Below, one piece after another: positions 28,311 to 49,236 of a DNA stretch of 55,303 bases. A program made the position numbers and the translations under genes. The first letter of the stretch is position 1. Every line of letters starts with the position of its first letter. The stretch lies in the UHGV virus genome UHGV-0114783; one strand, 5' to 3'. The notes below the pieces were generated by a model. The model was not told the DNA's origin and did not search any database. It saw nothing but the letters and a program-made list of their open reading frames with translations. The stretch is from a virus.

Positions 28311-28436
28311 TCAAATGTTCCCATTCCGGGGGCATGGACGATTCGACAGGTGTTACAAACGTTGGTGGTGAAATATCTTCTTGCGCTGGCGGGCAGGGTG
28401 TGGTTATGATTATTTCGCACCTCACAAAACGGGTGC

Positions 28437-28655
28437 CGGGTTTAGCAGCCTGAACGTTCTAGCGGGTAGCCGCTGATTTCCGTATAGCGGTATTTTTACG
28501 CCCGAAAACCAACCACACCCCCGATTTATGGCGGGGCGTGGTGGGGAGGCTTAACGCCTGCTGGTTTCCTAGAACGCCAGTCTGCTAACCCCGCCACGTC
28601 TCGCCACCCATGTTTAGCAGCATCTGGCGAGACTCCTTCAATATGTTCTAGGAGC
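28437..28655 (+). ncRNA. Candidate structured regulatory RNA region with mutually complementary repeats (P4 immunity-like arrangement)
   Basis: TTTAGCAGC...CGTTCTAG at 28441..28462 and again at 28613..28650, complementary block CTAGAACG...TCTGCTAA at 28569..28589, GC hairpin near 28512..28545. Confidence 0.35.
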
Positions 28656-28751
28656 CGCTAAAAATGGCTAGATCCGCACATCCAAAATTCACCTGGCGCT
28701 TTCTCGCGCTTAATCGCCACGACAAAAAAGCCAAACCTTGCCGTTTGTCCG

Positions 28752-29723: not shown

Positions 29724-29895
29724 AACCTTCCAGATTGACGGATACGCTGTTAACAGGCGCGGGCATACGGTAGGGATTCACTACACCATGACCAGCACTA
29801 GCCCAGAAACAGCTAAATCTACTGCGCAACTACTGGCGCAGAAGGGCAGCTATAAACACGTTCGCATTACCCGCATTCGTGAGGTGGCAGCATGA
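29716..29895 (+). CDS. Small hypothetical protein (59 aa)
   Basis: Hand-translated ORF with GGAGG ahead of the ATG; overlaps neighbours by a few bases; not in ORF track. Confidence 0.4.
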   Translation: MRKTFQIDGYAVNRRGHTVGIHYTMTSTSPETAKSTAQLLAQKGSYKHVRITRIREVAA

Positions 29896-30155
29896 ACATA
29901 AATACCATCTACCGCCACCCGGCAGAGCTGGAAGCCGAAGCGATGCTATCTCGTAAAGAAGCATACCCGGATGATTTTACGCTGGCAGACCGAACAGCAG
30001 AACGCATGACCCGCGCCCGCAATGGGCTGGCTCACGTTATGACCGATTTAGCCACTCAACTAGACGATGAACAGGCCGCTATCGTGTATTGCTGGCTGAG
30101 TAAAGTCCTGACGATTATCGATATAGCCAGAATTGATGCGGAGGCCAGCGCATGA
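29892..30155 (+). CDS. Hypothetical protein
   Basis: 87-aa ORF, translationally coupled (ATGA overlap). Confidence 0.45.
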   Translation: MNINTIYRHPAELEAEAMLSRKEAYPDDFTLADRTAERMTRARNGLAHVMTDLATQLDDEQAAIVYCWLSKVLTIIDIARIDAEASA

Positions 30156-30373
30156 GCCAGTTACAACTGATTGATGCCACCTGTCAGATTGAACAGGCAC
30201 AGGCTGTTTTATCCATGTGGCTGGAGAGCACCACCAAAGACACTAGCCCCGACCTTCCGCGTCTTATCGGTTCAATCCTCACTTTGCTGCATGGCGTCCC
30301 GGAGGCAATGGAAGAAGCCGAAAGCAAGCTGGCTGACTATGTGATGCGTGAATATCGGGAGGGCAAGTCATGA
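30152..30373 (+). CDS. Hypothetical protein
   Basis: 73-aa ORF, coupled. Confidence 0.45.
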   Translation: MSQLQLIDATCQIEQAQAVLSMWLESTTKDTSPDLPRLIGSILTLLHGVPEAMEEAESKLADYVMREYREGKS

Positions 30374-30960
30374 GCTATCACGCAGAGGCAACGCCGCACG
30401 GCGTCAATATCATGACCAGCAATGATGCCGGGATATATGAGCATGTAGCCATTATAACCTATGAGAGCGCTGTAAGCCGTCTGGATGCGGGAGAGTACGA
30501 CGATACGCCAGATATCGGCTACGCCATTCATTTTGCCGTTGCTGATGGCGGGGCGCGTGGCTGGTTCGACTTTACTGCGCAGCATAACGTCACTATGTGG
30601 CGCTGGCTGATTGCTGCGACGTTCGTTTCTGAGATGAAGCGCGAAAACGGCACAACCTCCGTCACGGAGGCTGACGGCACAACATCGCAGGTGGCGATTT
30701 ACTCCAATGGTAATGCGGGCATGGTGATTTACCCGTTTGCTGAACGGCTGGCGATGGCGAACAACATCGAGGGCGCAATGATTGAGCGATACGGCGTCGA
30801 ACAGGGTACGGAAAACGCCATTGTGTTCTACCGCGCCATGCTGGACACGGAGCGCGGCGAGTTGACCCCGTTCGGGCGTCAGACGCTGGCAGAGCTACAC
30901 GATGGATTCATTGCCGATCTGAATGAAAACGGCTGGCCTGAAATGCCGCTGGCGCACTGA
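30370..30960 (+). CDS. Hypothetical protein
   Basis: 196-aa ORF immediately upstream of the primase gene. Confidence 0.45.
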   Translation: MSYHAEATPHGVNIMTSNDAGIYEHVAIITYESAVSRLDAGEYDDTPDIGYAIHFAVADGGARGWFDFTAQHNVTMWRWLIAATFVSEMKRENGTTSVTEADGTTSQVAIYSNGNAGMVIYPFAERLAMANNIEGAMIERYGVEQGTENAIVFYRAMLDTERGELTPFGRQTLAELHDGFIADLNENGWPEMPLAH

Positions 30961-30973
30961 GGGAGGTACACGA

Positions 30974-33754
30974 ATGCGTAATATCGACCTTATCCGCGAA
31001 GTGACCACCGCCGCAGCAGGGCGCTGGCCTTATGTGCTGGCTGGATTGTCTATCGACGTGCCTGATTCATCGCGCCGCCATGCCCCCTGCCCTGCATGTG
31101 GCGGTACGGATCGCTTCCGGTTCGATGATAACGGGCGCGGCAGCTTTATCTGCAACCAGTGCGGCGCGGGCGACGGGCTGGATTTAATCAAGCGGGTTAA
31201 CAACTGCGACACCACGGAGGCGGCGCACCTTGCCGCTGATGTGCTGGGTATTGATTACCGGGCAGCAGAAACCGACCCGACAGCAGCCAGCCAGAGGCGG
31301 GAGCAAATGGAGTCTGAGCGCCAGCAGCGCGAGCAGGAGCGCCAGAAACAGGCAGCAGAGGACGCAGAGCAGCGAAGGGCTACGTTTGCCAGCCTGTATG
31401 CCGGAATGCGCCAGAGCGTCACACGGGGCGAATCTGAATATCTGATGGCTAAGGGGCTGGACGGGTTCACTTTCCCGCTATTGCCTGATGGTTCAGTCCT
31501 GCTTGAGCTGGTGGATGAGTCCGGCGCAGTGGCAGCCGCACAGACCATCACCCCACAGGGAGAAAAGCGCCTTCTGACAGGTTCAGCAAAGCGCGGGGCA
31601 TATCACGCCGTAAACGCGCCAGAATCGCCGCAGAGCGTTTTAATTGCCGAGGGGCTGGCAACGGCGCTATCCGTTCACCAGATGCACCCCGAAGCGCTGG
31701 CGGTGGTCGCAGTGGACGCCGGAAACCTGCTTTCGGTCGCACAGCTTATGCGCCAAAAGCACCCTAACGCGCGGATCATCATTGCCGCAGACAATGACCA
31801 GAGCGCCGAAAGTGACAGAAGAGGAGGAGTGAAAATTAACACAGGTAAGGAGTGCGCGGAGAAAGCCGCAAAAGCCGTTGCTGGCTGGGCCTCGCTGCCA
31901 CCCGTGGACTACAAAGCGGACTGGAACGATTACCACCAACAATATGGACTGGAAGCCGCTACAGCAGCATTTAACGCCTCAATGTACCAACCGGAGGGTA
32001 AGAAAGTGGGTGTGACACTGGCAGCAATCGACGGCGGCAAGAAAAGCCCTGGTATCGACGACGACCTTAAACCGCGAGTAGAGAGCCGTTCGGATGGCAT
32101 TCACTGGATCACCCCGAAAGTGGACAAAGACACAGGGGAAATTATCAATACCGAGGCGTGGCTATGCTCTCCGCTGGAGATTGCTGGTGCAGGGAGTGAT
32201 AACGCCAGACAGCGCTTTCTGATCCTGCGTTGGGACGTTCCCGGCAATCGGGGGCAAGTTACCCGTGCGCTTCCTTGGGAGGACATTGGCGACCGCGAGG
32301 GATGGCGAACTCTGAAAAACGGCGGTGTCAGTGTGACGACCAAACCATCGTTGCGGGCAATTCTGGCCGACTGGCTACAGCGAACCGGTAGCGGCAAGGA
32401 GTGGCAGATCAGCCACACCACAGGCTGGCACAGCGGGGCGTACATCATGCCGGATGGTGATGTTATTGGTGATCCAGAGATACCGCTTTTATTCAGTGGC
32501 CGCAGTGCGGCGGCTGGTGGCTATACCGTCAGTGGAACGCCGGAAAGCTGGCGTGATTCGGTGGCGCGTCTTGCGTTGGGCAACCCGTCAATGATGCTGG
32601 GTGTTGCTGCTGCGCTGTCTGCACCGCTGATCGGGCTTGTTGGCGCTGACGGTTTCGGTGTTCACCTTTTCGAACAGTCCAGCGCAGGGAAGACGACGAC
32701 CGCCAACATTGCCAGCAGCTTATACGGTGAACCGGATGCCCTGCGCCTCACCTGGTACGGTACTGCGCTGGGTATCGCCAACGAAGCGGAAGCGCATAAC
32801 GACAGCCTGTTACCGCTGGACGAAGTGGGGCAGGGCAGTAGCGCCAAAGACGTTGCCACGTCGGCTTACACGCTGTTTAACGGTGCCGGAAAGTTACAGG
32901 GGGCGAAGGAGGGCGGCAACCGTGAGTTAAAGCGCTGGCGTACCGTGGCGATCAGTACCGGGGAAATGGACATTGAAACGTTTCTTTCTGCTGGTGGGCT
33001 GAAAGTTAAGGCCGGGCAACTGGTGCGACTGCTTAATTTACCGATGGAGAAATCAGTAACGCACCATGAGTACCAGAACGGGAAGCAACACGCCGACGCA
33101 CTCAAAGAGGCTTACCAGACGAACCACGGAGCCGCAGGCCGTGAATGGATTAAATGGCTTGCAGGCCACCAGCAGGAGGCAAAACAAGCTGTCAGAGCGG
33201 CGCAAGAGCGCTGGCGCAGTCTTATCCCCGCTGATTATGGCGAACAGGTTCATCGTGTAGGCGAGCGGTTCGCCATTCTGGAGGCGGCGCTGGTGCTTGG
33301 GATGCCTGTCACTGGCTGGGGGGAGCAGGAAAGCCGGGACGCCATCCAGCATGGCTTTAACGCCTGGGTGAAAGAGTTTGGCACGGGGAACCGTGAGCAT
33401 AAGCAGATCATCGAGCAGGCAGAGGCGTTTCTTAATGCATACGGACTGAGCCGATTTGCACCTTACCCTTATGACCCGGCTGACATGCCGATTCGGGATT
33501 TGGCCGGGTACCGTCAGAAAGGGGCGCATGATGCTGATCCGATAGTGTTCTACACGTTCCCGGCAGCATTCGAAGGTGAGATTGCGAAGGGATTCAACGC
33601 GAAACAGTTTGCCCGTGTGCTGGCCGGGGCTGGGGTGCTGAAACCGCCAGCCAGCGGAAGGGGGTATCAGCGTAAATCCCCGCGAATTGATGGACGCCAG
33701 ATAAACGTTTATGTGCTCCAGCTACGACCCGACGAGATAGAGGGTGAAGAATAA
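30974..33754 (+). CDS. Primase-helicase (P4 alpha-like: zinc ribbon, TOPRIM, Walker-A NTPase)
   Basis: ORF track 30923..33754 trimmed to the ATG at 30974; CPACGG...CNQCG zinc ribbon, TOPRIM-like IAEGLATA...IIIAADND, Walker A GADGFGVHLFEQSSAGKTT. Confidence 0.85.
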   Translation: MRNIDLIREVTTAAAGRWPYVLAGLSIDVPDSSRRHAPCPACGGTDRFRFDDNGRGSFICNQCGAGDGLDLIKRVNNCDTTEAAHLAADVLGIDYRAAETDPTAASQRREQMESERQQREQERQKQAAEDAEQRRATFASLYAGMRQSVTRGESEYLMAKGLDGFTFPLLPDGSVLLELVDESGAVAAAQTITPQGEKRLLTGSAKRGAYHAVNAPESPQSVLIAEGLATALSVHQMHPEALAVVAVDAGNLLSVAQLMRQKHPNARIIIAADNDQSAESDRRGGVKINTGKECAEKAAKAVAGWASLPPVDYKADWNDYHQQYGLEAATAAFNASMYQPEGKKVGVTLAAIDGGKKSPGIDDDLKPRVESRSDGIHWITPKVDKDTGEIINTEAWLCSPLEIAGAGSDNARQRFLILRWDVPGNRGQVTRALPWEDIGDREGWRTLKNGGVSVTTKPSLRAILADWLQRTGSGKEWQISHTTGWHSGAYIMPDGDVIGDPEIPLLFSGRSAAAGGYTVSGTPESWRDSVARLALGNPSMMLGVAAALSAPLIGLVGADGFGVHLFEQSSAGKTTTANIASSLYGEPDALRLTWYGTALGIANEAEAHNDSLLPLDEVGQGSSAKDVATSAYTLFNGAGKLQGAKEGGNRELKRWRTVAISTGEMDIETFLSAGGLKVKAGQLVRLLNLPMEKSVTHHEYQNGKQHADALKEAYQTNHGAAGREWIKWLAGHQQEAKQAVRAAQERWRSLIPADYGEQVHRVGERFAILEAALVLGMPVTGWGEQESRDAIQHGFNAWVKEFGTGNREHKQIIEQAEAFLNAYGLSRFAPYPYDPADMPIRDLAGYRQKGAHDADPIVFYTFPAAFEGEIAKGFNAKQFARVLAGAGVLKPPASGRGYQRKSPRIDGRQINVYVLQLRPDEIEGEE

Positions 33755-33778
33755 AAACACACATACGAGATGTTTTTT

Positions 33779-34073
33779 TGTTGGTTCAGTTGGTTCAGTA
33801 ACTATTTAATTAATATAAGTGTGTGTATTTAATGCATTTACATGCTTGTAAGTGAACCAACACCGAACCAACAAACGCCCATTTTGAACCAACAAATGCC
33901 GCTATTGAACCAACGCCCTTTTCTGGCTGGCCTGTAAATCTTTCCCACTGAACCAACACGAAAATAGCGTTTGTTGGTTCAAAACGGGGCTTTGTTGGTT
34001 CACTCCTAAAGAAATAATCCTTATAAAACAACAATCTTTACAAATTGAACCAACTGAACCAACTGAACCAACA
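33779..34073. repeat. Iteron array, about a dozen GAACCAAC/GTTGGTTC octamers in both orientations (candidate origin of the nested element)
   Basis: Direct reading: TTGGTTCAG x2, GAACCAAC x5, GTTGGTTC x2, then GAACCAACTGAACCAACTGAACCAAC, immediately downstream of the primase gene. Confidence 0.7.
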
Positions 34074-34355
34074 TGTTTTTGCTTATCTATAGAGTTTTTT
34101 CGGAGAGTAATTACTAATTTGGAGGGGCGTCGCCTAAGCGAAAGTATGCGGAAACGGCAACTTTGCGGAGCGGAAAAGAAAAAGCCCGCGCTGGAGAGGC
34201 GAGGGCTTTTGTTAACCATGTTTATGCAATCACACAACGGTGGATCACCGTCATAGTATCACGTCGATTTATCATTTCAATATGCGCAATGATATTTACT
34301 AACATTGCAATTTATGCAATGATCAGAATTTAAACAACGCAAAAGGTTATGAACA

Positions 34356-34919
34356 ATGAAACAGATAACCAATGTTAATCTGGAAAGTGATAACTCTGGT
34401 GGTACCGTCGAGGTGACTTACTCCGATGATACGTTCGAAAGGCTGACCTGCTCGCTTCCTGTGGCTCTCGTCATTGCGAATCTTGCAACGACGCTTAAGC
34501 AGGAACGTGCAACACGCATTGCAACTGGCGACCGCCTGCGTCGGATGTACACCCGCGATAGTGACATGATTACTCGCAGTGGCAGCGGCGCTTCTACGAC
34601 CTCCACCGCGCCAACGTCAATGGACGCTGAATTTATGCGCCTGGTACGCGCGGTAGCACCAAAGTATGACAACGCCCTTCCTGATACCGATCCTCGCCTT
34701 GTTGCGCTCGACGTGCTGCGTTACGCACCCGCTGAGGCATTCAGTGCGGTACATCCGACCCCGCTATCAGAGATTCAGCTTGATCAGGCTATCGACGTTC
34801 TGGAGCAGGTTGGCGACTACATGCGAGTTAACAACGTTTCACCGAAGATTCTCTCCACAGGCGACGCCATTCGCAGCATTAACACCGATAATGCCAGTTT
34901 CTGGCATCGCACGAAGTAA
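34356..34919 (+). CDS. Hypothetical protein
   Basis: 187-aa ORF after the iteron region. Confidence 0.45.
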   Translation: MKQITNVNLESDNSGGTVEVTYSDDTFERLTCSLPVALVIANLATTLKQERATRIATGDRLRRMYTRDSDMITRSGSGASTTSTAPTSMDAEFMRLVRAVAPKYDNALPDTDPRLVALDVLRYAPAEAFSAVHPTPLSEIQLDQAIDVLEQVGDYMRVNNVSPKILSTGDAIRSINTDNASFWHRTK

Positions 34920-34925
34920 GGAGCA

Positions 34926-35120
34926 ATGAGCATGGCTATTTATGACCCGAAATTAGCAGCAGGAAACCCGCAAAGCGCCGGGCGTAAACTCTTTGGCCGT
35001 GAGCATGCCGAGCAGTTACGTATGCGTAACAACTTCAACAACGAATGCCGCAATCTGGAAAAAGTCAACGAAGCGAATGCAAAGTTCTGGAGTGAACAGG
35101 ATGAAAAAGCCAAACGTTAA
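34926..35120 (+). CDS. Hypothetical protein
   Basis: 64-aa ORF. Confidence 0.35.
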   Translation: MSMAIYDPKLAAGNPQSAGRKLFGREHAEQLRMRNNFNNECRNLEKVNEANAKFWSEQDEKAKR

Positions 35121-35268
35121 ACCGGTATTACTTTCTGGCGACCAGTTCGCCGCAATCTGCAAGATCCAGGAGCGCGAACGCCAGCGCTCCGATATTGGCG
35201 TTGCGCCTTCTGTCCATCAAATTGCCCGTGGGCTGGTGGCGAAAGCGCTGGCATCAATTCAGGAATAA
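35101..35268 (+). CDS. Hypothetical protein (55 aa)
   Basis: ORF track 34993..35268 trimmed to the ATG at 35101. Confidence 0.3.
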   Translation: MKKPNVKPVLLSGDQFAAICKIQERERQRSDIGVAPSVHQIARGLVAKALASIQE

Positions 35269-35273
35269 CGACT

Positions 35274-36341
35274 ATGTCATATAACTGGATGCGCCATTTC
35301 GAGCTACAGCTCATCGATGAGAATGGCAAAGGAATTAGCCTTAGTGATTTCAAAGTTACCTTTGATATAGAGCGTAACGATAACAAATGGCCAGCTGTTG
35401 CGACGGTCAAGATCTACAACCTTTCACCAACTACTCAGAACCGTATTATGCAACGTGAGTTTGCCAAAATTGTGTTGATAGCGGGGTATGATGGTCGTGC
35501 GCAGGATGTAAGGGCAAGTGATGTGGGGATTGCACGTGAAATATCAGCAAGCGAAGTGGGCCAGGCTAACGGCGCAAACTACGGAGTCATTTTCAGCGGT
35601 GATATCCGCTTCACTGTGACCGGAAAAGATAACCCTGTCGATTCATGGGTACAGGTGCAGGCTTGTGACTCTGTGGAGGCGTTTACCAGCGCATTTATCA
35701 ACACCACTATCAGCAAAGGCTACACCACAGAAGATATTTATGTTGAGCTTATGAAAAGGCTGGAACCTTACGGCATTTCTCGCGGTATTGTTCCTGAATT
35801 CCCGGCAACGGTATTTCCTCGCGGTCGAGCCCTCTTTGGCTATGTCCATAACTATCTCGATGAAGTGGCCGCGCAGTGCAAAGCCACTTGGCAATTCAAC
35901 TATGGAAAAGTCGATATTGTTCCCAGAGACAAGGCCACTCATGAAGCTGTGGTTCTCAACGCTAATACCGGGCTTATCGGTATGCCTCAGCAGACCATCG
36001 GTGCGGGTGTGAATGTCAAATGCCTGATTAACTCACGGATTCACCTGAACGGGCTTATCCAACTGGATCAGGCTTCGGTATATCGTAGCGCCTTATCTGC
36101 GGATCAAATTGCCCAAGCTGGTGGGCCAATTTCGGTGGAAAGCCAAAACGGAAACCTTGTCACTACTGGATTAACGCAGAGTCCGGCGAGCATTGCTACC
36201 GATGGTATCTATAAGGTTCGGTATATCAGTTACACGGGCGACACGCGCGGTCAAGCGTGGTATATGGATCTGGCGTGTGAGGCTCGCGGGAATTCTGATT
36301 TATTTTCAAGTTCATTTATGAATAAGCAGAGTGAAGAATGA
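35274..36341 (+). CDS. Baseplate hub-like protein, diverged second copy
   Basis: 355-aa ORF colinear with 47449..48513 (shared WMRHFELQL, RFTVTGKDN, AVVLNANTGLIGMPQQT, YTGDTRGQAWYMDL blocks). Confidence 0.65.
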   Translation: MSYNWMRHFELQLIDENGKGISLSDFKVTFDIERNDNKWPAVATVKIYNLSPTTQNRIMQREFAKIVLIAGYDGRAQDVRASDVGIAREISASEVGQANGANYGVIFSGDIRFTVTGKDNPVDSWVQVQACDSVEAFTSAFINTTISKGYTTEDIYVELMKRLEPYGISRGIVPEFPATVFPRGRALFGYVHNYLDEVAAQCKATWQFNYGKVDIVPRDKATHEAVVLNANTGLIGMPQQTIGAGVNVKCLINSRIHLNGLIQLDQASVYRSALSADQIAQAGGPISVESQNGNLVTTGLTQSPASIATDGIYKVRYISYTGDTRGQAWYMDLACEARGNSDLFSSSFMNKQSEE

Positions 36342-36682
36342 AGAAGATTATTTTACTGATTGGTTTATTGGGCGCATCTGGAAGTCATGCTGCGCAGGTT
36401 ATTACCATGCAGTGCGGAAACTTTCGCTTTGAGATGATAGAAAACTCGATGGCGAGAATTAATGGTGAGTATGTAACATCTCAGAAAATTACAGAGTTCG
36501 GACAGAACGGGGCAAAAGTAGAAATGACGCTTATGCCTGCCAGCGATGGGAATCTGTATGGGTTTGAATACATCCATCCTGACGGTAGCAAAAAGCGCTG
36601 GCTGAATGTTGAGCTTATCCGCACCAATATGAATCAGGCGCGGATCATTGGCTCGTTTGATTGTAAGCGCGTGAAGGGGTAA
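36338..36682 (+). CDS. Small secreted protein with conserved QCG.F and DCK...KG motifs (second copy)
   Basis: 114-aa ORF with signal-peptide-like N-terminus, same position between hub and spike genes as the phage copy. Confidence 0.5.
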   Translation: MKKIILLIGLLGASGSHAAQVITMQCGNFRFEMIENSMARINGEYVTSQKITEFGQNGAKVEMTLMPASDGNLYGFEYIHPDGSKKRWLNVELIRTNMNQARIIGSFDCKRVKG

Positions 36683-36690
36683 GGGGAATC

Positions 36691-37353
36691 ATGCCATTCA
36701 TTCGACCCGCAAATGAGCAGGATGTAACACAGCTTGTTCAGGACAATGCTAAAGCATCTGTAACCAATGCGTTACCTGGCATTATTCGTTCGTTCGATCC
36801 CGAAACTGTCACCTGCGATGTTGATATAGCCATTACGGCAAGAATGACGAAGGCTGGCACAATGGGTGAAGATTTCCAGTATGAGTCCGTCCGCTATCCG
36901 ATTCTTAACGATTTGCCTGTGGTTTTTCCGCGCGGGGGCGGAGTTACGCTTACTTTCCCGGTTAAAGATGGTGATGAATGCCTCATCGTATTCTCTTCGC
37001 GTTCGATTGATTTCTGGTGGCAGAACGGCGGTGTGCAGGAGCGAGCTGATGGGCGTATTTTAGATCTGTCTGATGCGTTCGTTATTCCTGGCCCCCAATC
37101 ACAGGTAAAGAAGATATCCAATATCAGTACCAACGCTGCGCAGCTGCGTACAGATGATGGAGCGGCATTTGTAGAGGTGTCCGCTGGTGGAGCCATTACT
37201 ATTACCAGCTCTCAAATCACCCTTAACGGGCCCGTGCAGGTAAACGGAACGATCACTTCCACTGGCGACCAAACGGCCAACGGTATCAGCCAGATTAACC
37301 ATACCCACGGCGGCGTACAATCAGGCGGCAGCAACACAGGAAAACCACAATGA
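36691..37353 (+). CDS. Baseplate central spike protein (gpV-like), diverged second copy
   Basis: 220-aa ORF colinear with 49246..49986 (shared FPRGGG.TLTFPVK.GDECL, DLSDAF, TDDGAAFVEV, HGGVQ.GG..TG.PQ end). Confidence 0.65.
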   Translation: MPFIRPANEQDVTQLVQDNAKASVTNALPGIIRSFDPETVTCDVDIAITARMTKAGTMGEDFQYESVRYPILNDLPVVFPRGGGVTLTFPVKDGDECLIVFSSRSIDFWWQNGGVQERADGRILDLSDAFVIPGPQSQVKKISNISTNAAQLRTDDGAAFVEVSAGGAITITSSQITLNGPVQVNGTITSTGDQTANGISQINHTHGGVQSGGSNTGKPQ

Positions 37354-37529
37354 GCAATATTGAAAAACTGAAACCAGAAGAAAGCGGAGCCAGCCAGAAT
37401 GGAAAGGTTCGTACCTGGCTGGATGATATCAACGGGCAGCCGGAACCAGATGGTATTGGCAGCTTCGGTGAGAGTGCGATCTGCGAAGAATCACGCACAG
37501 CGGAAACCATGCGAAATAACGTAGGGTGA
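37350..37529 (+). CDS. Small hypothetical protein (59 aa)
   Basis: Hand-translated ORF starting at the ATGA overlap with the preceding gene; not in ORF track. Confidence 0.3.
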   Translation: MSNIEKLKPEESGASQNGKVRTWLDDINGQPEPDGIGSFGESAICEESRTAETMRNNVG

Positions 37530-37619
37530 CGGTCAGATGACGTGATCTGTAACTTTAAGTAGCGGTGCAGGGGCAGAACTCAGCACGCTACTTTTATTTT
37601 CTTTGTCAAAAGGTGAACA

Positions 37620-38093
37620 ATGGCGGCATTACCAACAATGGCTAAGGTTATGATTATTCAATCATTAGCTTGCTACGAACCCCCTTCCAGAATCGTTGAG
37701 CTTGTAAAACAAGATTTTGGCATCGTCGTTACCCGGCAGCAGATATCGGCCTACAACCCTGAAAATACAATGGCAAAAAATCTTAGCCAAAAATGGGTAG
37801 AACTCTTTAATCACACTCGCGCCCGCTTCCAGAGTGAAATATCCGAGATCCCTATCGCTAACAAAGCGTACCGGCTGCGTATGCTCGATCGCATGGCTAA
37901 CCGTGCAGAGGCAATCAAGAATTACGCATTAACAGCGCAGCTTATTGAACAGGCCGCGAAAGAGTGCGGGGACGCTTACACCAACAAATTAAAGGTTGAA
38001 ACAACGGGTAAAGATGGTGGTCCGATCAGAACGGAAACAACGAACTTAACCGCCGAAGAAGCCGGGGAGGCATACCGCAAATTTATGGGATAA
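37620..38093 (+). CDS. Orphan terminase small subunit homolog (no adjacent TerL)
   Basis: 157-aa ORF colinear with the phage TerS at 19944..20417, roughly two-thirds identical by eye, nearly identical C-terminal third. Confidence 0.65.
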   Translation: MAALPTMAKVMIIQSLACYEPPSRIVELVKQDFGIVVTRQQISAYNPENTMAKNLSQKWVELFNHTRARFQSEISEIPIANKAYRLRMLDRMANRAEAIKNYALTAQLIEQAAKECGDAYTNKLKVETTGKDGGPIRTETTNLTAEEAGEAYRKFMG

Positions 38094-38308
38094 CCACCAG
38101 CGCCGTGACACGTCACACGCAAAAATAGCACCGCCCATTAATGGGCTGGTGGCACAGCTTGCATATTGAAATTCCCTGTAAATCTTACAGATCTGGTATT
38201 GAGTAACTTACCCCATTCAGCGCCACACATCACAGAGCAGCCTATGGACTACACACAAAATCAGGCTGAAAATAAATCCTTATATTTCAGTTGATTAAAT
38301 AATAGCCT

Positions 38309-38328
38309 TGCATTCCTGTACCGGATGC
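38309..38328. repeat. Right flanking repeat TGCATtcCTGTACCggATGC (candidate att site of nested element)
   Basis: Matches 25390..25409; the ATG within it is the start codon of the next head gene. Confidence 0.4.
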
Positions 38329-44250: not shown

Positions 44251-46518
44251 ATGAGCGGTAACGCAGATACGATTAAAGACTTCCTTGTTTCGCTGGGATT
44301 CGATATCGATCAGGCTGGCGCTAATAAGTTTGAAGCCGTGCTGAAAGGCGTTACCGCAAACGTTCTGAAGGTCGGCGCGGTGGTGGAAGGCGCAGCGCTG
44401 AGCATTGTCGGATTTACCACCCAGATCGCGAATGGTCTGGATAAAATTTACTGGGCATCCCAACGGACGGGGGCCAGCGTCCAGGGCATCAAAGCGCTGG
44501 GCTATGCCGCGTCGCAAACCGGTGCCAGCGCCGAGTCGGCCATGTCCTCCCTCGAAGGGCTGGCCGGTTTCATGCGTAGCAATCCGGGGGCGGAAGGCTT
44601 CCTGAACCGTCTTGGTGTCCAGACCCGAGATGCCAGCGGAAAGATGCGTGATACTGCGGCCATCTTTACTGGCGTTGGGCAAAAGCTCAACAACATGCCG
44701 TATTACCGCGCGAAGCAATACGCGCAGATGCTTGGCATCGATGAAAACACGCTGATGGCGATGCGGCGCGGCATGAATGGCTTTACCGCCGATTACCAGT
44801 CTATGCTGCAAAAGACTGGGTTCAACGCTGATAAGGCGGCTGTGCAGTCCAATAAATTCATGACGTCCATGCGCGGGCTTACGTCGCTGTTCGGCATTAT
44901 GCGGGACAAGATCGGCTCAAACCTCGCTGGTGGTCTTGCTGGTTCGCTGGACAGCCTGCGGCGGCGCATCCTCGACAACTTCCCGAAGATTGAAGAGACG
45001 CTGACCAGAGTTATTAAAGGCGTGATCTGGCTTGCGAACGCCTTCACGCGAATGGCGTGGCGGCTCATACAGGGCGCTGGCTCTGTCATTGACTGGTGGA
45101 AGCGTCTTGACGATGGCAGTAAAAATCTGCTGAAAATATTCGGTGCTCTACTTGTCGCATGGCGTCTGCTTAATTCTGCGTTCCTGAAATCCCCGATTGG
45201 AATTATCACCACGCTGATTCTGGCGATCGGATTACTCTATGACGATTATCAGACGTGGAAAGAAGGCGGTAAAAGCCTGATTGACTGGTCCAAGTGGGAG
45301 CCTGCAATAGAAAAGGCGAAAAAGGCAATTCTCTGGCTGCGCGATAAGCTTCTGGGGCTGAAAGATTCTGTTGGTGGATGGCAGAACTCGCTGGAAATTT
45401 TGGCTACTTTCATCGCTGGGGTATGGGTAACAAAAGTATTGGGAGCATTCGCAAAAATATCCGGTCTTCCGATACCTCCATGGCTTAAATTATGGGGAGC
45501 GTATGCTGGTTACCTGGTTTCAGATCGTGAAAACATAAAAGCCAGTGCTAAATCATCTTTGGACTATACCAAAAGGAACATTGGTGATGCTCTTGCTACG
45601 GTTGGCATCAAAACCGACCTTGGGCGAAAAGATGTTAGCGAGGTAAGAGAATGGCCCGCATGGATGGATTGGCTGCATGGTGGCCCAGGTAAGATTATTC
45701 GTCAGGCGCAAAGCAATGGCGTCGTTTATGGCGATAATGTTCAGCCTGACATTCCCGGGGCGGAACAGCATGTTCGTAGTAATGAAATTGCCCCGCATGA
45801 AAGAGATGAAATAAAAAACCGTCAGCAGGCTGCTAATGGTTATCTTGAAAAAATCTCAGACGGGATTGCCAAAATCGGTAATTTATTTTTCTCCCCGGCT
45901 GGAGCTGCTGAAATCTCTCCAAATATATCGGGTGACCCCTCCCAGTTTGCGCAATCAGTCAAACGTCCACAGGCCACAGCCCAGGGCAAAGTATTGCTCG
46001 ACTGGATGGGGCCAATGTTCAATAAACTTGAGTCGCTTTATCAACTTCCAGCTGGTCTATTGAAAAGTGTGGCGATAACCGAGTCAGGTGGTAACCAGTT
46101 CGCCATGTCCGGCGCGGGTGCAAAGGGGCTGTTCCAGTTAATGGATGGCACGGCGCGAGACATGGGCCTGCGTGGTAACGATGTGTTCGACCCGGAAAAG
46201 TCAGCTCAGGCAGCCGCTAAGTACCTTAGCCAGCTATTGCGGCAGAACGGCGGAGACCTTAGCAAAGCACTTGCATCATATAACTGGGGAATCGGGAACG
46301 TTCAACGTTATGGAATGGGGCTAATGCCGCAGGAAACGCGCAATTACATTCCGAAAGTAATGAGCAATATGCCCACCAGCGCCCCGGTGATTCAGCAGGA
46401 AACGAACATTAACATCCACGGCGTTTCCGATCCTCGCGAAGCTGCCCGTTTGACTGTTGACCGTCAAAAGGGTGTGAATTCACAGTTAACCCAGCAACTC
46501 CCCGCAGGACCGAGATAA
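44251..46518 (+). CDS. Tail tape measure protein with C-terminal lytic transglycosylase (SLT-like) domain
   Basis: 755-aa ORF; hydrophobic central segments; SLT-like motif AITESGGNQFAMSGAGAKGLFQLM. Confidence 0.75.
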   Translation: MSGNADTIKDFLVSLGFDIDQAGANKFEAVLKGVTANVLKVGAVVEGAALSIVGFTTQIANGLDKIYWASQRTGASVQGIKALGYAASQTGASAESAMSSLEGLAGFMRSNPGAEGFLNRLGVQTRDASGKMRDTAAIFTGVGQKLNNMPYYRAKQYAQMLGIDENTLMAMRRGMNGFTADYQSMLQKTGFNADKAAVQSNKFMTSMRGLTSLFGIMRDKIGSNLAGGLAGSLDSLRRRILDNFPKIEETLTRVIKGVIWLANAFTRMAWRLIQGAGSVIDWWKRLDDGSKNLLKIFGALLVAWRLLNSAFLKSPIGIITTLILAIGLLYDDYQTWKEGGKSLIDWSKWEPAIEKAKKAILWLRDKLLGLKDSVGGWQNSLEILATFIAGVWVTKVLGAFAKISGLPIPPWLKLWGAYAGYLVSDRENIKASAKSSLDYTKRNIGDALATVGIKTDLGRKDVSEVREWPAWMDWLHGGPGKIIRQAQSNGVVYGDNVQPDIPGAEQHVRSNEIAPHERDEIKNRQQAANGYLEKISDGIAKIGNLFFSPAGAAEISPNISGDPSQFAQSVKRPQATAQGKVLLDWMGPMFNKLESLYQLPAGLLKSVAITESGGNQFAMSGAGAKGLFQLMDGTARDMGLRGNDVFDPEKSAQAAAKYLSQLLRQNGGDLSKALASYNWGIGNVQRYGMGLMPQETRNYIPKVMSNMPTSAPVIQQETNINIHGVSDPREAARLTVDRQKGVNSQLTQQLPAGPR

Positions 46519-47144
46519 TGGATATTTTATCAGCGATTTTTCGCCAGCAATCACGGCGAATTGGCCTGCTGATCCCCAGCGTGGTCGTTTCCGAAAAGCA
46601 TTCTGATGCGCTCGAAATTACTGAGCACCCGGTGGAGAAGCCAACAACGAATAGCGCCTCGGGTTTCATCGCCGATCATGCGTATAAGCGCCCCAGTGAA
46701 GTCACAATGGAATGCGGCTTCGCTGGGGGCGGTTCGTTGCTGGACTTCATTGATACATCTTCAATCGGTCTTAGCGCTGGGCTTAGCCCAAAGGAGACAT
46801 ACCAAAAGCTGCTGGATATGCAGCTTGAGCGCGTACCGTTCGATGTGGTTACCGGGAAGAGGGTGTACACCAATATGCTGGTGCGAGCCATTGAGGTGAC
46901 GACCGATAAAACCAGCGAGAACGTGCTGAACTGCACGCTTACCCTGCGTGAAGTCATCATAACGCATACAAAAAATGTCACCGTTGCTGATAAATCCGAT
47001 ATGCAGGACGGGGTTAGTACATCTGCGGTGCAGAATTCCGGGACTAAATCCACCACCCCAGTAAATGAATCGGTAATTAAGTCAACAGGGTGGTTTGATG
47101 GACTAAAAGGAACCAGTCTTGGTAACTCTATAGGTATCCAATGA
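46518..47144 (+). CDS. Baseplate/tail protein (putative)
   Basis: 208-aa ORF after the tape measure gene. Confidence 0.4.
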   Translation: MDILSAIFRQQSRRIGLLIPSVVVSEKHSDALEITEHPVEKPTTNSASGFIADHAYKRPSEVTMECGFAGGGSLLDFIDTSSIGLSAGLSPKETYQKLLDMQLERVPFDVVTGKRVYTNMLVRAIEVTTDKTSENVLNCTLTLREVIITHTKNVTVADKSDMQDGVSTSAVQNSGTKSTTPVNESVIKSTGWFDGLKGTSLGNSIGIQ

Positions 47145-47446
47145 ATGTAACTGAAATCCCTTTATCGCCGGATAACCAGCTATTTCGCATTCAGTTAGCA
47201 GAGACAACATACACGCTGAGAGTCATTTGGCGTGATTCTGCTGGCTGGATTCTGGATGTACAAGATAGCAGTGGCGAACCGCTTCTTTCTGGCGTGCCGC
47301 TGGTAACCGGTGTAAATCTTCTTGAGCAATATCCTCAACTAGGTATTAACGGGGCGCTGCTCGTTGGCTGCGATGTAGGCGCACCGGACGAGCCCACCAA
47401 AACCAACCTCGGCACATACAGCCACCTCATTTTCGTGCAGGAGTAG
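47141..47446 (+). CDS. Baseplate/tail protein (putative)
   Basis: 101-aa ORF, coupled. Confidence 0.4.
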   Translation: MNVTEIPLSPDNQLFRIQLAETTYTLRVIWRDSAGWILDVQDSSGEPLLSGVPLVTGVNLLEQYPQLGINGALLVGCDVGAPDEPTKTNLGTYSHLIFVQE

Positions 47447-47448
47447 AA

Positions 47449-48513
47449 ATGTCTCTTAACTGGATGCGCCATTTTGAGCTGCAACTGTTGGACCAGAACG
47501 GGCAGGGCGTTTCCCTGTCTGATTTTAAGGTCACGTTCCAGATCGAGTGGGCAGATACACGCTGGCCGCGAGTGGCGAACGTGAAAATTTACAACCTTTC
47601 GACCGATACCACGAACAAGATACTGGGGCAGGAGTTTGCAAAAATTCGCATCATTGCCGGGTATGACGGTATTGCGCCGGATGTTGATGCGAGCCAGGTC
47701 GGCGTCGCCCGAGAGATTTCACCAGACCAGATAGGGCAGGTGAACGGTCAGAACTACGGCCTGATTTTTGACGGTGATATTCGCTTTACCGTAACCGGGA
47801 AGGACAACATTACCGATTCCTGGGTGTTGATTCAGGCTATTGGAGATCATGAAGCGTTCCTCTACGCGACTACCATCACTACGCTTGCCGCTGGCTATAC
47901 CGTTGCGGATCTGCACCGGGCGACGATGCAGGATTTCAACGTGTTCGGCGTGACACAGGGCATTACCGGCGATTTTCCTGATACCGTGTTTCCTCGTGGC
48001 CGCGCGATTTACTCATCCACTCGTAACGTGATGGATAATATTGCAGCGCAGTGCAAAGCGACATGGCAGCTGGTGGATGGTCAGGTCCAGATGGTGCCGG
48101 AGGATAAATATATTCACGAAGCCATTGTGTTGAATGCCAATACTGGCCTGATTGGTATGCCGCAACAGACGATGGGCGGCGGCGTAAACGTGCGGTGCCT
48201 GATAAACCCAAACATCCGCATTAATGGTCTTATCCAGCTCGATCAGGCTTCGGTGTACCGCGCGTCGCTCGGTAATAGCGAAATCGCACAGTCGCCCGGG
48301 CGTATCACCGAAACTGAAGAGAACGGCAACCGTGTGCTGACCGGCACGACGTCACAGGCTGCCAGCATTGCGACGGATGGCGTTTATATCGTCAAAGCTA
48401 TCGACTATACTGGCGACACCAGAGGTCAGGCGTGGTACATGGATTTGATGTGTTTTGCGCGTGGCAGTCGTGATTTAGTTAATGCTGGTGCTATGCAAAA
48501 AACAAACTACTGA
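47449..48513 (+). CDS. Baseplate hub-like protein (phage copy)
   Basis: 354-aa ORF in hub position, diverged second copy at 35274..36341. Confidence 0.65.
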   Translation: MSLNWMRHFELQLLDQNGQGVSLSDFKVTFQIEWADTRWPRVANVKIYNLSTDTTNKILGQEFAKIRIIAGYDGIAPDVDASQVGVAREISPDQIGQVNGQNYGLIFDGDIRFTVTGKDNITDSWVLIQAIGDHEAFLYATTITTLAAGYTVADLHRATMQDFNVFGVTQGITGDFPDTVFPRGRAIYSSTRNVMDNIAAQCKATWQLVDGQVQMVPEDKYIHEAIVLNANTGLIGMPQQTMGGGVNVRCLINPNIRINGLIQLDQASVYRASLGNSEIAQSPGRITETEENGNRVLTGTTSQAASIATDGVYIVKAIDYTGDTRGQAWYMDLMCFARGSRDLVNAGAMQKTNY

Positions 48514-48523
48514 GGTACGGGAC

Positions 48524-48862
48524 GTGAAACTCGTAATTTTTACCATTGCAGCATTATTTTCTTTCCAGGCTATTGCTGATTCTCAGTGTGGTGATTTCAA
48601 CATCCATTGGGCTGATGATGGTTTCGCTCGCGTAAACGGAGCTAAACCTGAATCGCAAAAAGTGACATTTCTTAAAAATGACGGTGATTATAACAACGTC
48701 AAAATTGAATGGCGCTTAGCGACCAATCAACCAGGGCGATGGGTAGGAATGGAGTTTATTGGCCGTAATGGTAAAGCAATCCTGAATGCTCAGTGGCTGC
48801 AAGCAAATATGGATGCACCACGTCAGTATGCAACTTATGACTGTGTAAAAATAAAAGGATAA
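48524..48862 (+). CDS. Small secreted protein with QCG.F and DC...KG motifs (phage copy)
   Basis: ORF track 48482..48862 trimmed to the GTG at 48524 (GAGG upstream); signal-peptide-like N-terminus. Confidence 0.45.
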   Translation: MKLVIFTIAALFSFQAIADSQCGDFNIHWADDGFARVNGAKPESQKVTFLKNDGDYNNVKIEWRLATNQPGRWVGMEFIGRNGKAILNAQWLQANMDAPRQYATYDCVKIKG

Positions 48863-48867
48863 AATTA

Positions 48868-49188
48868 ATGAAAGGATTTGTATCTCTTCTTTTTCTGCTA
48901 TCCACCTCCGTTTGCGCTGGAACGTTAAGTGATTTTTTTGTAAAACATCCAGATTTGGATAATAACCTTGCTATACACACCGCGATTTCTAAAGCTTCTG
49001 GCATGGAGGCTGCTGGATTTGCACGCAGAGAGGGTGGCAGCGAAAAAGAGTTGATGAGTAGTAAAGGTGATCAATTCGCAGTGCTCGGGTTTCGTCGAGT
49101 GAAAATGTATTGTAGCTATCCTGAATCAGCTCAAATGACTGGTCTAAGCGCTGAAGATTTTAAGCTTGTGCTTAGTAAGAACCTATAG
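48868..49188 (+). CDS. Small secreted protein of unknown function (moron within the baseplate cluster)
   Basis: 106-aa ORF with signal-peptide-like N-terminus MKGFVSLLFLLSTSVCAGT, followed by its own terminator. Confidence 0.45.
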   Translation: MKGFVSLLFLLSTSVCAGTLSDFFVKHPDLDNNLAIHTAISKASGMEAAGFARREGGSEKELMSSKGDQFAVLGFRRVKMYCSYPESAQMTGLSAEDFKLVLSKNL

Positions 49189-49207
49189 TTTCATTTCAAG
49201 TATGAAT

Positions 49208-49236
49208 TTAACCCGCCACCGAGCGGGTTTTTTTAT
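49208..49236 (+). terminator. Rho-independent terminator
   Basis: Stem ACCCGC-CACCGA-GCGGGT followed by TTTTTTT. Confidence 0.55.

What the first reader, a model, noticed from the sequence alone, without database searches (positions are those of the whole stretch)
48524..49236. Two small secreted proteins embedded in the baseplate cluster, one with its own terminator
Between hub and spike genes lie a 112-aa protein with signal-peptide-like N-terminus and QCGDF / DCVKIKG motifs (matching the insert copy at 36338..36682) and a 106-aa secreted-looking protein found only in the phage copy and followed by a strong terminator. Secreted proteins inside a tail module are unusual; they may be lysogenic-conversion or exclusion factors, or periplasm-acting tail-tip components.
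Basis: partly seen in the sequence, partly recalled or inferred. Interest (0 to 1): 0.45.

Follow-up and report, generated by a model that had tools for sequence, protein, structure and literature searches.

The report
Secreted-protein moron island in baseplate operon
Between the baseplate hub and spike genes of this prophage lies a small AT-rich accessory island whose two genes encode proteins exported to the periplasm; they are real, conserved genes of unknown function, most likely envelope-acting accessory factors such as blockers of incoming phage rather than parts of the tail.

Summary
Gene 1 (48524..48862, 112 aa) and gene 2 (48868..49188, 106 aa) both start with Sec-type signal peptides. 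An intrinsic terminator (49210..49236) follows them. They form a ~750-bp low-GC mosaic island (about 48469..49222) between hub and spike, which are adjacent in the solved minimal baseplate of Pam3.

Gene 1 belongs to a narrow Enterobacterales family (phrog_3443): an 8-stranded beta-barrel with two invariant cysteines. It sits right after the hub in 83 of about 86 close relatives and 52 of 69 species-level relatives. Ten distant relatives have hub abutting spike, so the slot is dispensable.

Gene 2 (phrog_13007, helical, 20 clusters) is one of many alternative cargoes at the second position, alongside DUF4236, EACC1, Phd/Doc and HEPN-like genes.

The terminator belongs to the slot, not to gene 2. 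It is conserved with compensatory changes whatever the cargo.

Both genes are under purifying selection. Gene-1 alleles are old and shuffle independently of hub, spike and tape measure.

No known family or fold match identifies a function. My best reading is a moron island encoding periplasmic accessory proteins, most likely acting against superinfecting phage; that function is inferred, not shown. Novelty is modest.

The parts
48469..49222 (+). Low-GC mosaic island between the conserved hub and spike genes. It includes the last ~15 hub codons, gene 1, gene 2 and the 5' half of the terminator.
   Evidence: Nucleotide identity to relatives with other gene-1 alleles drops from 95-100% to 47-70% at about 48469. 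It returns at 49205-49223. GC is 0.36-0.46 inside against 0.52-0.60 in the flanks. Eleven relatives show the same GC dip.
48524..48862 (+). Gene 1 ('slot 1'): 112-aa precursor of a periplasmic 8-stranded beta-barrel protein, phrog_3443, function unknown.
   Evidence: ORF and RBS. 112 homologous clusters, all Enterobacterales, no Pfam domain. C22 and C107 are invariant. AF2 model has pLDDT 85 and eight strands. phrog_3443 match, E 3.5e-44. dN/dS about 0.05.
48524..48577 (+). Predicted Sec signal peptide of gene 1 (residues 1-18, VKLVIFTIAALFSFQAIA | DSQC).
   Evidence: The n/h/c architecture is read from the sequence and a heuristic. The region varies in sequence but stays hydrophobic across the family. 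In relatives it is replaced by lipoprotein signals in fused versions.
48868..49188 (+). Gene 2 ('slot 2' cargo): 106-aa precursor of a small helical periplasmic protein, phrog_13007, function unknown.
48868..48918 (+). Predicted Sec signal peptide of gene 2 (residues 1-17, MKGFVSLLFLLSTSVCA | GTLSDFF).
   Evidence: Heuristic test. The mature start A-G-T/N is invariant in the family alignment.
49210..49236 (+). Rho-independent terminator 10 nt upstream of the spike ATG, a conserved feature of the slot.
   Evidence: 7 pairs, 5 of them GC, then a T-run. dG -11.1 to -13.3 kcal/mol. Present in nearly all relatives regardless of cargo. 95% of cells paired, with compensatory changes at 3 pairs across 27 sequences. 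Only sub-threshold Rfam hits, all driven by this hairpin.
47449..48513 (+). Baseplate hub gene (left flank).
   Evidence: PF22759 E217_GP41 match just below the gathering score (26.7 against 27 bits). phrog_196 'baseplate hub', E 3.5e-82.
49246..49986 (+). Baseplate spike gene (right flank).
   Evidence: PF18352 N-terminal spike domain, E 8e-42, and PF18946 GpV Apex motif.
36338..36682 (+). Diverged second copy of gene 1 (114 aa) between the hub and spike copies carried by a 12.9-kb satellite-like insert. It has no gene 2 and no terminator.
   Evidence: 33% identity, E 2e-13. phrog_3443 match, E 6e-40. Its ATG overlaps the hub stop (ATGA), and the spike starts 9 nt after its stop.
15330..16112 (+). 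Q-type antiterminator of the prophage. It is the context for read-through of the internal terminator during late transcription.
   Evidence: PF03589 Antitermination protein Q, E 3e-43.

Best explanation
The region is a moron-type accessory island inserted between two baseplate genes that are otherwise neighbours.

Its two genes are made as Sec precursors and end up in the periplasm. Gene 1 gives a roughly 94-residue 8-stranded beta-barrel, probably closed by a C22-C107 disulfide. Gene 2 gives a roughly 89-residue helical protein. They cannot enter virions, which assemble in the cytoplasm.

The terminator at 49210..49236 stops any transcript that is not Q-modified. Q-antiterminated late transcription reads through it into spike and the wedge genes.

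The first position after the hub is reserved for an exported protein. The second is a free cargo slot.

Most likely the products act in the periplasm on the tail tip of incoming related phages (tape measure, spike or the host factors they use). That would make them superinfection-exclusion or entry-blocking factors. Old allele classes are kept in circulation by recombination.

Shown: the gene structure, the signal-peptide-like N-termini, conservation, dispensability of the slot, mosaicism, the terminator and the Q gene.
Inferred: export and the disulfide, absence from virions, read-through, and above all the exclusion function.
For: Island and composition.

Hub and spike are adjacent elsewhere:
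- 10 of 69 species-level relatives have gaps of only 3-103 nt.
- The solved Pam3 baseplate has them as neighbours (PMC9942802).

Export:
- Signal peptides in 47 of 48 and 9 of 9 family members.
- In about 12 close relatives the gene-1 domain is the C-terminal part of a 265-296-aa lipoprotein.
- Where the family is missing but a gap exists, the first gene after the hub is still a lipoprotein or signal-peptide protein (7 of 7 loci; also L026 type and L096).

Cargo slot:
- More than 10 alternative occupants in either orientation, including EACC1, Phd/Doc or Fic pairs, a HEPN-like protein and DUF4236.

Terminator conserved independently of cargo. Q antiterminator.

Allele behaviour typical of specificity or conflict genes:
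- Mature gene 1 has a median identity of 74% to the window copy, against 96% for hub, 98% for spike and 98% for the sheath initiator.
- Alleles assort independently of the spike, plug and tape-measure C-terminal alleles.
- Close pairs nonetheless show dN/dS of about 0.05.

Link to the tape measure:
- The N-terminal domain of the fused lipoprotein versions carries a Cys-flanked stretch that is 65% identical over 23 aa to tape-measure residues 328-350 (pairwise E 2e-6).
- That tape-measure motif is conserved across variants.

A streamlined satellite keeps hub, gene 1 and spike together in two diverged elements.

Precedents, from my own knowledge: HK97 gp15, TP-J34 Ltp and T4 Spackle.
Against: - There is no experimental or homology-based link to any exclusion protein. 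Pfam, NCBIfam and PADLOC give nothing.
- BFVD gives nothing significant.
- No convincing promoter was found: 9/12 matches are no more frequent than in shuffles. Expression in the lysogen is therefore unproven, and the genes may only be late genes.
- The tape-measure-mimic motif is in relatives, not in this window.
- Co-resident prophages carry different gene-1 alleles, but no more different than random pairs. This gives no signal for self-exclusion.
- Gene 1's near-universal presence next to the hub, including on a satellite, could also mean a function tied to hub or spike biology that I have not imagined.
Confidence: 0.4

Rival explanations
1. The proteins are lysogenic-conversion or host-fitness factors aimed at the bacterium's environment rather than at phages. 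Examples would be a periplasmic inhibitor of host lysozyme (like PliC/MliC), a ligand-binding barrel, or a stress or serum-resistance factor like lambda Bor.
Against: PliC ranks only about 51st, behind avidins and other generic barrels. There is no Pfam MliC or other hit even at E<=1 and no PDB sequence-profile hit. The family was found only directly after the hub of this one tail module in every context examined. A general fitness factor would be expected to spread more widely. Only 69 representatives exist among 1.84 billion proteins.
Confidence: 0.2
2. The proteins have a late lytic-cycle envelope function. Made with the tail proteins, they would modify the periplasm or outer membrane of the dying cell, for example to stop progeny from injecting into infected cells or debris, or to tune lysis.
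For: Gene 1 is tightly or translationally coupled to the hub gene. There is an ATGA overlap in the insert copy and in several relatives, and a 10-nt spacer here. No clear private promoter was found. T5 Llp and T4 Imm/Sp are precedents for infection-phase exclusion (own knowledge).
Against: The lysis cassette lies elsewhere: a glycoside-hydrolase endolysin candidate is at 17905..18519. A soluble periplasmic protein cannot mask outer-membrane receptors. The conserved terminator is easier to explain if some transcription here is not antiterminated. This rival overlaps the best explanation and differs mainly in timing.
Confidence: 0.15
3. Gene 1 and/or gene 2 is a Spackle-like inhibitor of the lytic transglycosylase (SLT) domain carried by the tape measure protein. 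It would block cell-wall penetration by superinfecting phage.
For: The window's tape measure has an SLT domain (PF01464, E 1e-24). T4 Spackle is a small periplasmic helical protein that inhibits the tail lysozyme (own knowledge). Gene 2 is small, periplasmic and helical.
Confidence: 0.07
4. The proteins are structural or assembly components of the tail tip, and the hydrophobic N-terminus is a membrane-insertion segment used during infection.
For: The genes sit between hub and spike. Gene 1 is present in most relatives and is retained with hub and spike on the satellite.
Against: Ten relatives have no gene at all between hub and spike. The complete Pam3 baseplate structure has no such part. The N-termini are canonical cleavable signal peptides, and lipoprotein signals in fused relatives. 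Low GC, allele shuffling and replacement by unrelated exported proteins do not fit a fitted structural part.
Confidence: 0.05

Closest known systems
Phage morons in tail operons (concept of Juhala/Hendrix; examples lambda lom and bor, HK97 gp15)
   Same: Extra genes lie between two structural genes that are adjacent in relatives. Base composition is deviant, a terminator follows, and the contents vary. The products go to the envelope. The surrounding late operon is under a Q antiterminator.
   Different: No private promoter could be shown. The first position is occupied in most relatives by one family instead of being sporadic. The proteins are unrelated in sequence to lom, bor or gp15.
HK97 gp15 superinfection-exclusion moron (Cumby et al. 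2012, cited in PMC11364771)
   Same: A small envelope protein is encoded inside the tail gene cluster of a temperate phage. It is proposed here to interfere with tape-measure-dependent DNA entry of the phage's own kind.
   Different: gp15 is an inner-membrane protein. These are soluble periplasmic proteins (or lipoproteins in relatives). There is no sequence similarity, and the function here is untested.
TP-J34 Ltp lipoprotein (PMC3952083)
   Same: An exported prophage protein acts outside the cytoplasm, and its reported target is the tape measure protein. In relatives, lipoprotein versions of gene 1 carry a tape-measure-like motif.
   Different: Ltp comes from a Gram-positive siphovirus, has a helical repeat fold and lies in the lysogeny module. 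There is no homology.
T4 Spackle (Sp)
   Same: A small periplasmic protein with a signal peptide, encoded by a myovirus, that acts on the tail tip of superinfecting phage. Gene 2 is likewise helical.
   Different: No structural match. There is no correlation with a tail lysozyme or SLT domain.
PliC/MliC periplasmic lysozyme inhibitors
   Different: No sequence-family match. Many unrelated barrels score higher. The family is restricted to one phage tail module.
Defence/cargo hotspots of prophages and satellites (Rousset et al. 2022, cited in PMC11364771)
   Same: The second position behaves as a hotspot. It has fixed flanks (the gene-1 stop and the terminator) and interchangeable cargo, including toxin-antitoxin pairs and EACC1 or HEPN-like genes.
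   Different: The location between baseplate hub and spike of SEN34-like tails is not one of the hotspots I know to be described. PADLOC recognises none of the cargo tested, apart from one weak HEPN hit.

Membership tests
Moron (accessory transcription unit inserted in a phage operon) | Lies between two genes that are adjacent in related phages | tested here: met
   Hub abuts spike (gap 3-103 nt) in 10 of 69 species-level relatives. Pam3 hub gp19 and spike gp20 are adjacent. Gap length ranges from 411 to 2477 bp in close relatives.
Moron (accessory transcription unit inserted in a phage operon) | Base composition differs from the flanking genes | tested here: met
   GC is 0.36-0.46 inside against 0.52-0.60 in the flanks. 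The same holds in 7 relatives.
Moron (accessory transcription unit inserted in a phage operon) | Own terminator | tested here: met
   Terminator at 49210..49236. It is conserved with compensatory changes. It belongs to the slot rather than to gene 2.
Moron (accessory transcription unit inserted in a phage operon) | Own promoter, expressed from the prophage | tested here: inconclusive
   Only 9/12 sigma-70 matches were found (48383..48411, 48662..48691, 48837..48865). Such sites are no more frequent than in shuffles: 16 found against 13.1 expected. No expression data are available.
Sec-exported (signal peptidase I) proteins | N-terminal basic residue, hydrophobic core of 8 or more residues, small residues at -3/-1 | tested here: met
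   A heuristic passed 47 of 48 gene-1 and 9 of 9 gene-2 family members; under the same test two of eight neighbouring tail proteins (the tape measure and the Dit-like protein) also met the thresholds, but only through internal hydrophobic stretches starting at residues 11-15. Cleavage sites AIA|DS and VCA|GT are read from the sequence. SignalP was not available.
Bacterial lipoproteins (as Cor, Llp, Ltp, Bor) | Lipobox ending in Cys at the end of the signal peptide | tested here: not met
   Neither window copy has a lipobox. Relatives do have lipoprotein versions (LLSGC, VLSGC, VLVSC) fused to the gene-1 domain.
MliC/PliC lysozyme inhibitors | Match to the family profile or conserved inhibitor motifs | tested here: not met
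   No Pfam hit at E<=1. The PDB profile search found nothing related.
MliC/PliC lysozyme inhibitors | 8-stranded antiparallel beta-barrel fold | tested here: inconclusive
T4 Spackle-type tail-lysozyme inhibitor | Structural similarity to Spackle, and co-occurrence with a tail-borne muralytic domain | tested here: not met
Baseplate structural protein of Pam3/E217/SEN34-type tails | Present in all phages with the module and assembled in the cytoplasm | tested here: not met
   Absent from 10 relatives and from the Pam3 structure. Signal peptide present. Virion proteomics is not available for any relative; the SEN34 paper has none.
PHROG families phrog_3443 (gene 1) and phrog_13007 (gene 2) | Significant match to the family profile over its full length | tested here: met
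   E 3.5e-44 (positions 6-114 of 115) and E 3.3e-16 (8-114 of 116). Both families are annotated 'unknown function'.
Known anti-phage defence systems (PADLOC) | Match to any PADLOC model | tested here: not met
   No hit for gene 1, gene 2, the insert copy or the lipoprotein variants.

The most novel reading that the evidence does not exclude
The position right after the hub in SEN34/Brunovirus-type contractile tails may be a dedicated 'periplasmic guard' slot. The gene-1 barrel family, its lipoprotein fusions displaying a disulfide-framed copy of a conserved tape-measure loop, and the unrelated exported proteins that replace it would together form a new class of periplasmic entry blockers. These would neutralise or decoy the tape measure or tail tip of incoming phages of the same tail type, with gene 2 as an optional partner. 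Satellites that carry their own hub and spike bring their own guard allele.
Probability: 0.25. Interest if true: 0.6.

Novelty: new member of a known kind. Interest (0 to 1): 0.38.

Why it matters
If the genes block phage entry from the periplasm, they add a compact and easily testable pair of proteins to the short list of Gram-negative exclusion factors that act on the tail tip. They would also identify a previously unlisted cargo hotspot, between hub and spike, in a prophage group that is common in E. coli, Klebsiella, Salmonella, Serratia and Pantoea. That would be useful for predicting phage-therapy host range and for mining defence genes.

If they turn out to be conversion factors or late envelope proteins, the result is ordinary. 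As it stands, this is a clean, well-delimited moron island with two uncharacterised exported proteins, not a new kind of system.

Tried and rejected
1. MliC/PliC or Spackle-like inhibitor of the tape-measure SLT domain. I rejected this as the main idea because gene-1 alleles, including an identical one, occur with SLT-negative tape measures. There is also no family or specific fold match.

2. Family searches. Pfam, NCBIfam, PADLOC, a PDB sequence-profile search and BFVD gave nothing for either protein. AFDB50 was not available.

3. Exhaustive profile search of 1.84 billion representatives. It found only the same narrow family. The long Gram-positive repeat proteins among the hits look spurious.

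4. Literature.
- The SEN34 paper has no virion proteomics.
- No paper mentions the RefSeq accessions or locus tags.
- The Tai tail-assembly-interference systems lie in other hotspots and, as far as the passages I read show, are unrelated to this slot.

5. Positive selection as the cause of gene-1 diversity. Rejected: close pairs give dN/dS of about 0.05, and the diversity comes from old alleles moved by recombination.

6. Covariation of gene-1 alleles with spike, plug or tape-measure alleles. None was seen.

7. Co-resident prophages carrying especially different alleles. They are no different from random pairs.

8. Mimicry of window tail proteins by gene 1 or gene 2. No significant in-window similarity exists apart from the insert copy.

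9. Apparent truncation of gene 1 in Serratia AS12. This was a gene-calling artefact; the gene is intact with a GTG start.

10. Known RNA families. Only sub-threshold hits were found, all driven by the terminator hairpin.
Full report
**What is there**

The window holds a lambdoid-regulated myovirus prophage. Its Q antiterminator is at 15330..16112 (PF03589).

The tail module is of the Pam3/E217/SEN34 type:

| Coordinates | Gene |
|---|---|
| 44251..46518 | tape measure with a C-terminal SLT domain |
| 46518..47144 | Dit-like tube initiator |
| 47141..47446 | plug |
| 47449..48513 | hub |
| 49246..49986 | spike (N-terminal spike domain plus GpV apex motif) |
| 49986..50339 | sheath initiator |
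| 50340..51539 | baseplate J |
| 51536..52216 | wedge |
| from 52198 | fibre genes |

- Gene 1 runs from GTG 48524 to 48862 (112 aa), with GAGG upstream. RefSeq uses the same start in a 99.6% identical E. coli prophage.
- Gene 2 runs from ATG 48868 to 49188 (106 aa).
- A hairpin AACCCGC/GCGGGTT plus T-run at 49210..49236 follows, ending 10 nt before the spike ATG. It is the best terminator-like site in 11 kb, with dG -11 to -13 kcal/mol.
- GC drops from about 0.53-0.55 to 0.36-0.46 over the region.

**Are they real, and are they exported?**

Both are real genes.
- Gene 1 has 112 homologous 90%-identity clusters, all in Enterobacterales and none with a Pfam domain.
- Gene 2 has 8 clusters by single-sequence search and 20 by profile search. 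Nearly all are 106-108 aa (one is 118 aa), and all are in Enterobacterales.
- Against close relatives, dN/dS is about 0.05 for gene 1 and 0.09-0.14 for gene 2, compared with 0.11 for the hub.

Both begin with a basic residue, a hydrophobic core and small -3/-1 residues (AIA|DS and VCA|GT).
- A crude n/h/c test passes 47 of 48 gene-1 and 9 of 9 gene-2 family members. Most of the neighbouring tail proteins fail it; the tape measure and the Dit-like protein met its thresholds only through internal hydrophobic stretches.
- Across the family the N-terminal segment varies in sequence but stays hydrophobic. The mature part has invariant C22 and C107.
- In about a dozen close relatives, and in two 50%-cluster representatives, the gene-1 domain is the C-terminal part of a 265-296-aa protein with a canonical lipobox. 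This independently places the domain outside the cytoplasm.

SignalP was not available, so export is a strong inference and not a measurement.

**Folds**

- The AF2 model of gene 1 (pLDDT 85) is an 8-stranded up-and-down barrel. C22 lies in the first strand and C107 in the last, which are presumably neighbours, so a barrel-closing disulfide is plausible (inference).
- BFVD and a PDB sequence-profile search give nothing.
- Both match PHROGs of unknown function: phrog_3443 and phrog_13007.
- NCBIfam and PADLOC find nothing.
- An exhaustive profile search of 1.84 billion representatives returns only 69 hits for gene 1, and these belong to the same narrow family.

**Comparative anatomy of the slot**

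I collected several sets of relatives:
- 4 E. coli prophages
- 5 phage records: Omnitron, SEN34, Mulock, vB_EcoM-683R1 and ST405-OXA48phi1.2
- 80 IMG/VR loci with hubs 83-99% identical
- 80 species-level GTDB loci with hubs 36-97% identical

*Position 1.*
- A gene-1 homologue directly follows the hub in 83 of about 86 close relatives.
- It does so in 52 of 69 species-level loci that contain both hub and spike.
- In 7 further loci the first gene after the hub is an unrelated lipoprotein or signal-peptide protein. The same holds for the L026 type and Pantoea L096.
- In 10 loci, those with the most distant hubs, hub and spike are separated by only 3-103 nt.
- In the solved Pam3 virion, hub gp19 and spike gp20 are adjacent genes and the baseplate has no further central component (PMC9942802).

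The slot is therefore an addition to the module and not part of it. When the slot exists, its first gene always encodes an exported protein.

*Position 2 is free cargo.* Occupants seen:
- the window's gene 2, in 10 of the loci
- a reverse DUF4236 gene (23 loci)
- a reverse EACC1-domain gene (8 loci)
- a 128-aa signal-peptide protein, as in Omnitron (7 loci)
- a membrane-anchored zinc-ribbon protein (7 loci)
- Phd/Doc or Fic pairs (5 loci)
- a HEPN-like pair
- Arc/HicB/KilA-N/ANT genes
- nothing at all (L086, L087)

Gene 2 was found between the gene-1 position and the spike in all six contexts examined. Its start is usually within a few nucleotides of the preceding stop.

*The terminator.* It is present just upstream of the spike ATG in nearly all relatives, whatever the cargo and even with gene 1 alone. 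Stem variants include CCAGC/GCTGG, GCCGC/GCGGC and CCCAC/GTGGG. Across 27 sequences, 95% of cells are paired and 3 pairs show compensatory changes. It is a feature of the slot, not of gene 2.

*Boundaries.*
- Against relatives carrying other gene-1 alleles, identity falls from 95-100% to 47-70% at about 48469, which is the last ~15 hub codons.
- It recovers at 49205-49223, inside the terminator.
- Cargo exchange happens between about 48850 and about 49205-49222.

**Allele behaviour of gene 1**

- Median identity to the window copy is 74% for mature gene 1. For the same loci it is 96% for hub, 98% for spike and 98% for the sheath initiator.
- Gene-1 allele classes (about 100, 95-97, 79-80, 72-74, 68-69 and 61-65%) combine freely with the two spike classes, the two plug classes and the tape-measure C-terminal variants.
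- Close alleles show strong purifying selection. The diversity is therefore a set of old alleles moved by recombination, not rapid adaptive change.
- Prophages that co-reside in one genome carry different alleles, but no more different than random pairs.

**Testing specific ideas**

*Inhibitor of the tape-measure SLT domain.* I first suspected a periplasmic inhibitor of this kind, like Spackle or MliC. This fails on co-occurrence.
- L016 has a 100% identical gene 1 but a tape measure without SLT.
- Mulock, 683R1, ST405-phi1.2, L008 and L089 also lack SLT.
- One exact gene-1 protein (P0047) sits beside both SLT-positive and SLT-negative tape measures.

*A different link to the tape measure.*
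- The N-terminal domain of the lipoprotein fusions contains DDC-(Q/N)TWK.(G/K)GKSLI(D/N)WSGE.C.
- This stretch is 65% identical over 23 residues to tape-measure residues 328-350, LLYDDYQTWKEGGKSLIDWSKWE (pairwise E 2e-6).
- That tape-measure motif lies just after a hydrophobic segment and is conserved in all tape-measure variants inspected.
- The similarity is in relatives, not in this window, and its meaning is untested. It does point to the incoming tail tip as the business partner of this slot.

**Mechanism proposed**

*Shown:*
- A two-gene, low-GC island with fixed boundaries.
- Signal-peptide-like N-termini.
- A dispensable slot.
- A conserved terminator.
- A Q antiterminator in the same phage.

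*Inferred from established lambdoid biology:* Q-modified late transcription reads through the terminator, while any unmodified transcript stops there. This is the classical moron arrangement.

*Inferred from the pattern above:* the products act in the periplasm, most likely on the tail tip or tape measure of incoming phages with this tail type. That would be superinfection exclusion, analogous to HK97 gp15, TP-J34 Ltp and T4 Spackle.

I put about 0.8 on 'accessory exported proteins, not virion parts' and about 0.4 on the full statement including exclusion.

*Weak points:*
- No promoter could be distinguished from chance.
- No homology ties the proteins to any characterised factor.
- No expression or proteomic data exist for any relative.

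**Rivals**

- A conversion or fitness factor such as a lysozyme inhibitor: 0.2.
- A late envelope function: 0.15.
- An SLT inhibitor: 0.07.
- A structural tail-tip part: 0.05.

Details and refuting results are given in the Rival explanations section.

**Comparison with what is known, and verdict**

This is a moron-type island plus a cargo hotspot. Both are known kinds of thing. The two proteins belong to uncharacterised, taxonomically narrow families.

What is mildly new is the regularity. An exported protein always comes first after the hub, a conserved terminator closes the slot, a tape-measure-like loop appears on the lipoprotein variants, and a satellite retains hub, gene 1 and spike together.

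I rate it as a new member of a known kind, with interest of about 0.4.

Noticed in passing
window 25404..38308 (junctions at 25390..25403 and 38309..38322): A 12.9-kb P4-like satellite is integrated inside the prophage, between the DUF2213 head gene and the next head gene. It is flanked by an imperfect 14-bp repeat (TGCATATCTGTACC / TGCATTCCTGTACC), and phage Omnitron has the empty site. It encodes an integrase, a second tyrosine recombinase, a TOPRIM/DUF927 primase, its own baseplate hub, a gene-1 copy and a spike, and a DUF2280 protein. A related element with the same gene order sits at tRNA-Thr next to proA in E. coli G5. A satellite that brings its own hub and spike deserves its own study.
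   Followed up: partly
relatives P0123, P0142, L028:4069-4959, L132:5086-6210, compared with window 45232..45300 (tape measure residues 328-350): Lipoprotein versions of the slot-1 protein carry a Cys-framed stretch that is 65% identical over 23 aa to a conserved tape-measure motif, DDYQTWKEGGKSLIDWSKWE (pairwise E 2e-6). This may be a tape-measure mimic or decoy.
   Followed up: partly
window 49159..49161 (gene 2 residue 98): The window copy of gene 2 has Phe where all 9 other aligned family sequences have a Cys, presumably paired with the invariant C82. A 98% identical cluster (P0113) still has Cys. The putative disulfide is lost in this copy.
   Followed up: no
window 44251..46518 and relatives L016, L008, L010-L012, L089, L180-L182: The C-terminal SLT (lytic transglycosylase) domain of the tape measure is present in some members of this phage group and absent in others that are otherwise near-identical. 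The tape-measure C-terminus is therefore itself a mosaic module.
   Followed up: partly
window 52646..53964 and 54487..55128: The tail-fibre C-terminal and assembly-gene segment is inverted relative to phage Omnitron. It is flanked by oppositely oriented tail-fibre-assembly-like ORFs (53112..53714 + and 53686..54159 -) and by a gene whose N-terminal sequence (MIYGYARVSTNHQDTELQ) resembles those of serine invertases; that resemblance is my recollection, not a database match. This looks like a Gin/Pin-type host-range switch.
   Followed up: no
window 48469..48513 (last ~15 codons of the hub gene): The recombination breakpoint on the left of the island lies inside the hub gene, so the hub's C-terminal tail changes together with the gene-1 allele. 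Whether this reflects a functional link or just the crossover site is unknown.
   Followed up: no
relatives L003:2500-2850 (-), L031/L182, L065, L178, L153: Cargo at the second position in relatives includes an EACC1-domain protein, Phd/Doc or Fic toxin-antitoxin pairs, a HEPN-like pair, Arc/HicB/KilA-N/ANT genes and a membrane-anchored Mu-F-like zinc-ribbon protein. The hub-spike gap acts as an accessory and defence hotspot in this prophage group.
   Followed up: partly
L128 (GTDB record titled Chryseobacterium sp. 18061): This is the one non-Enterobacterales record with this hub (63% identity). The locus otherwise looks like the enterobacterial ones, so contamination or mislabelling is likely.
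   Followed up: no
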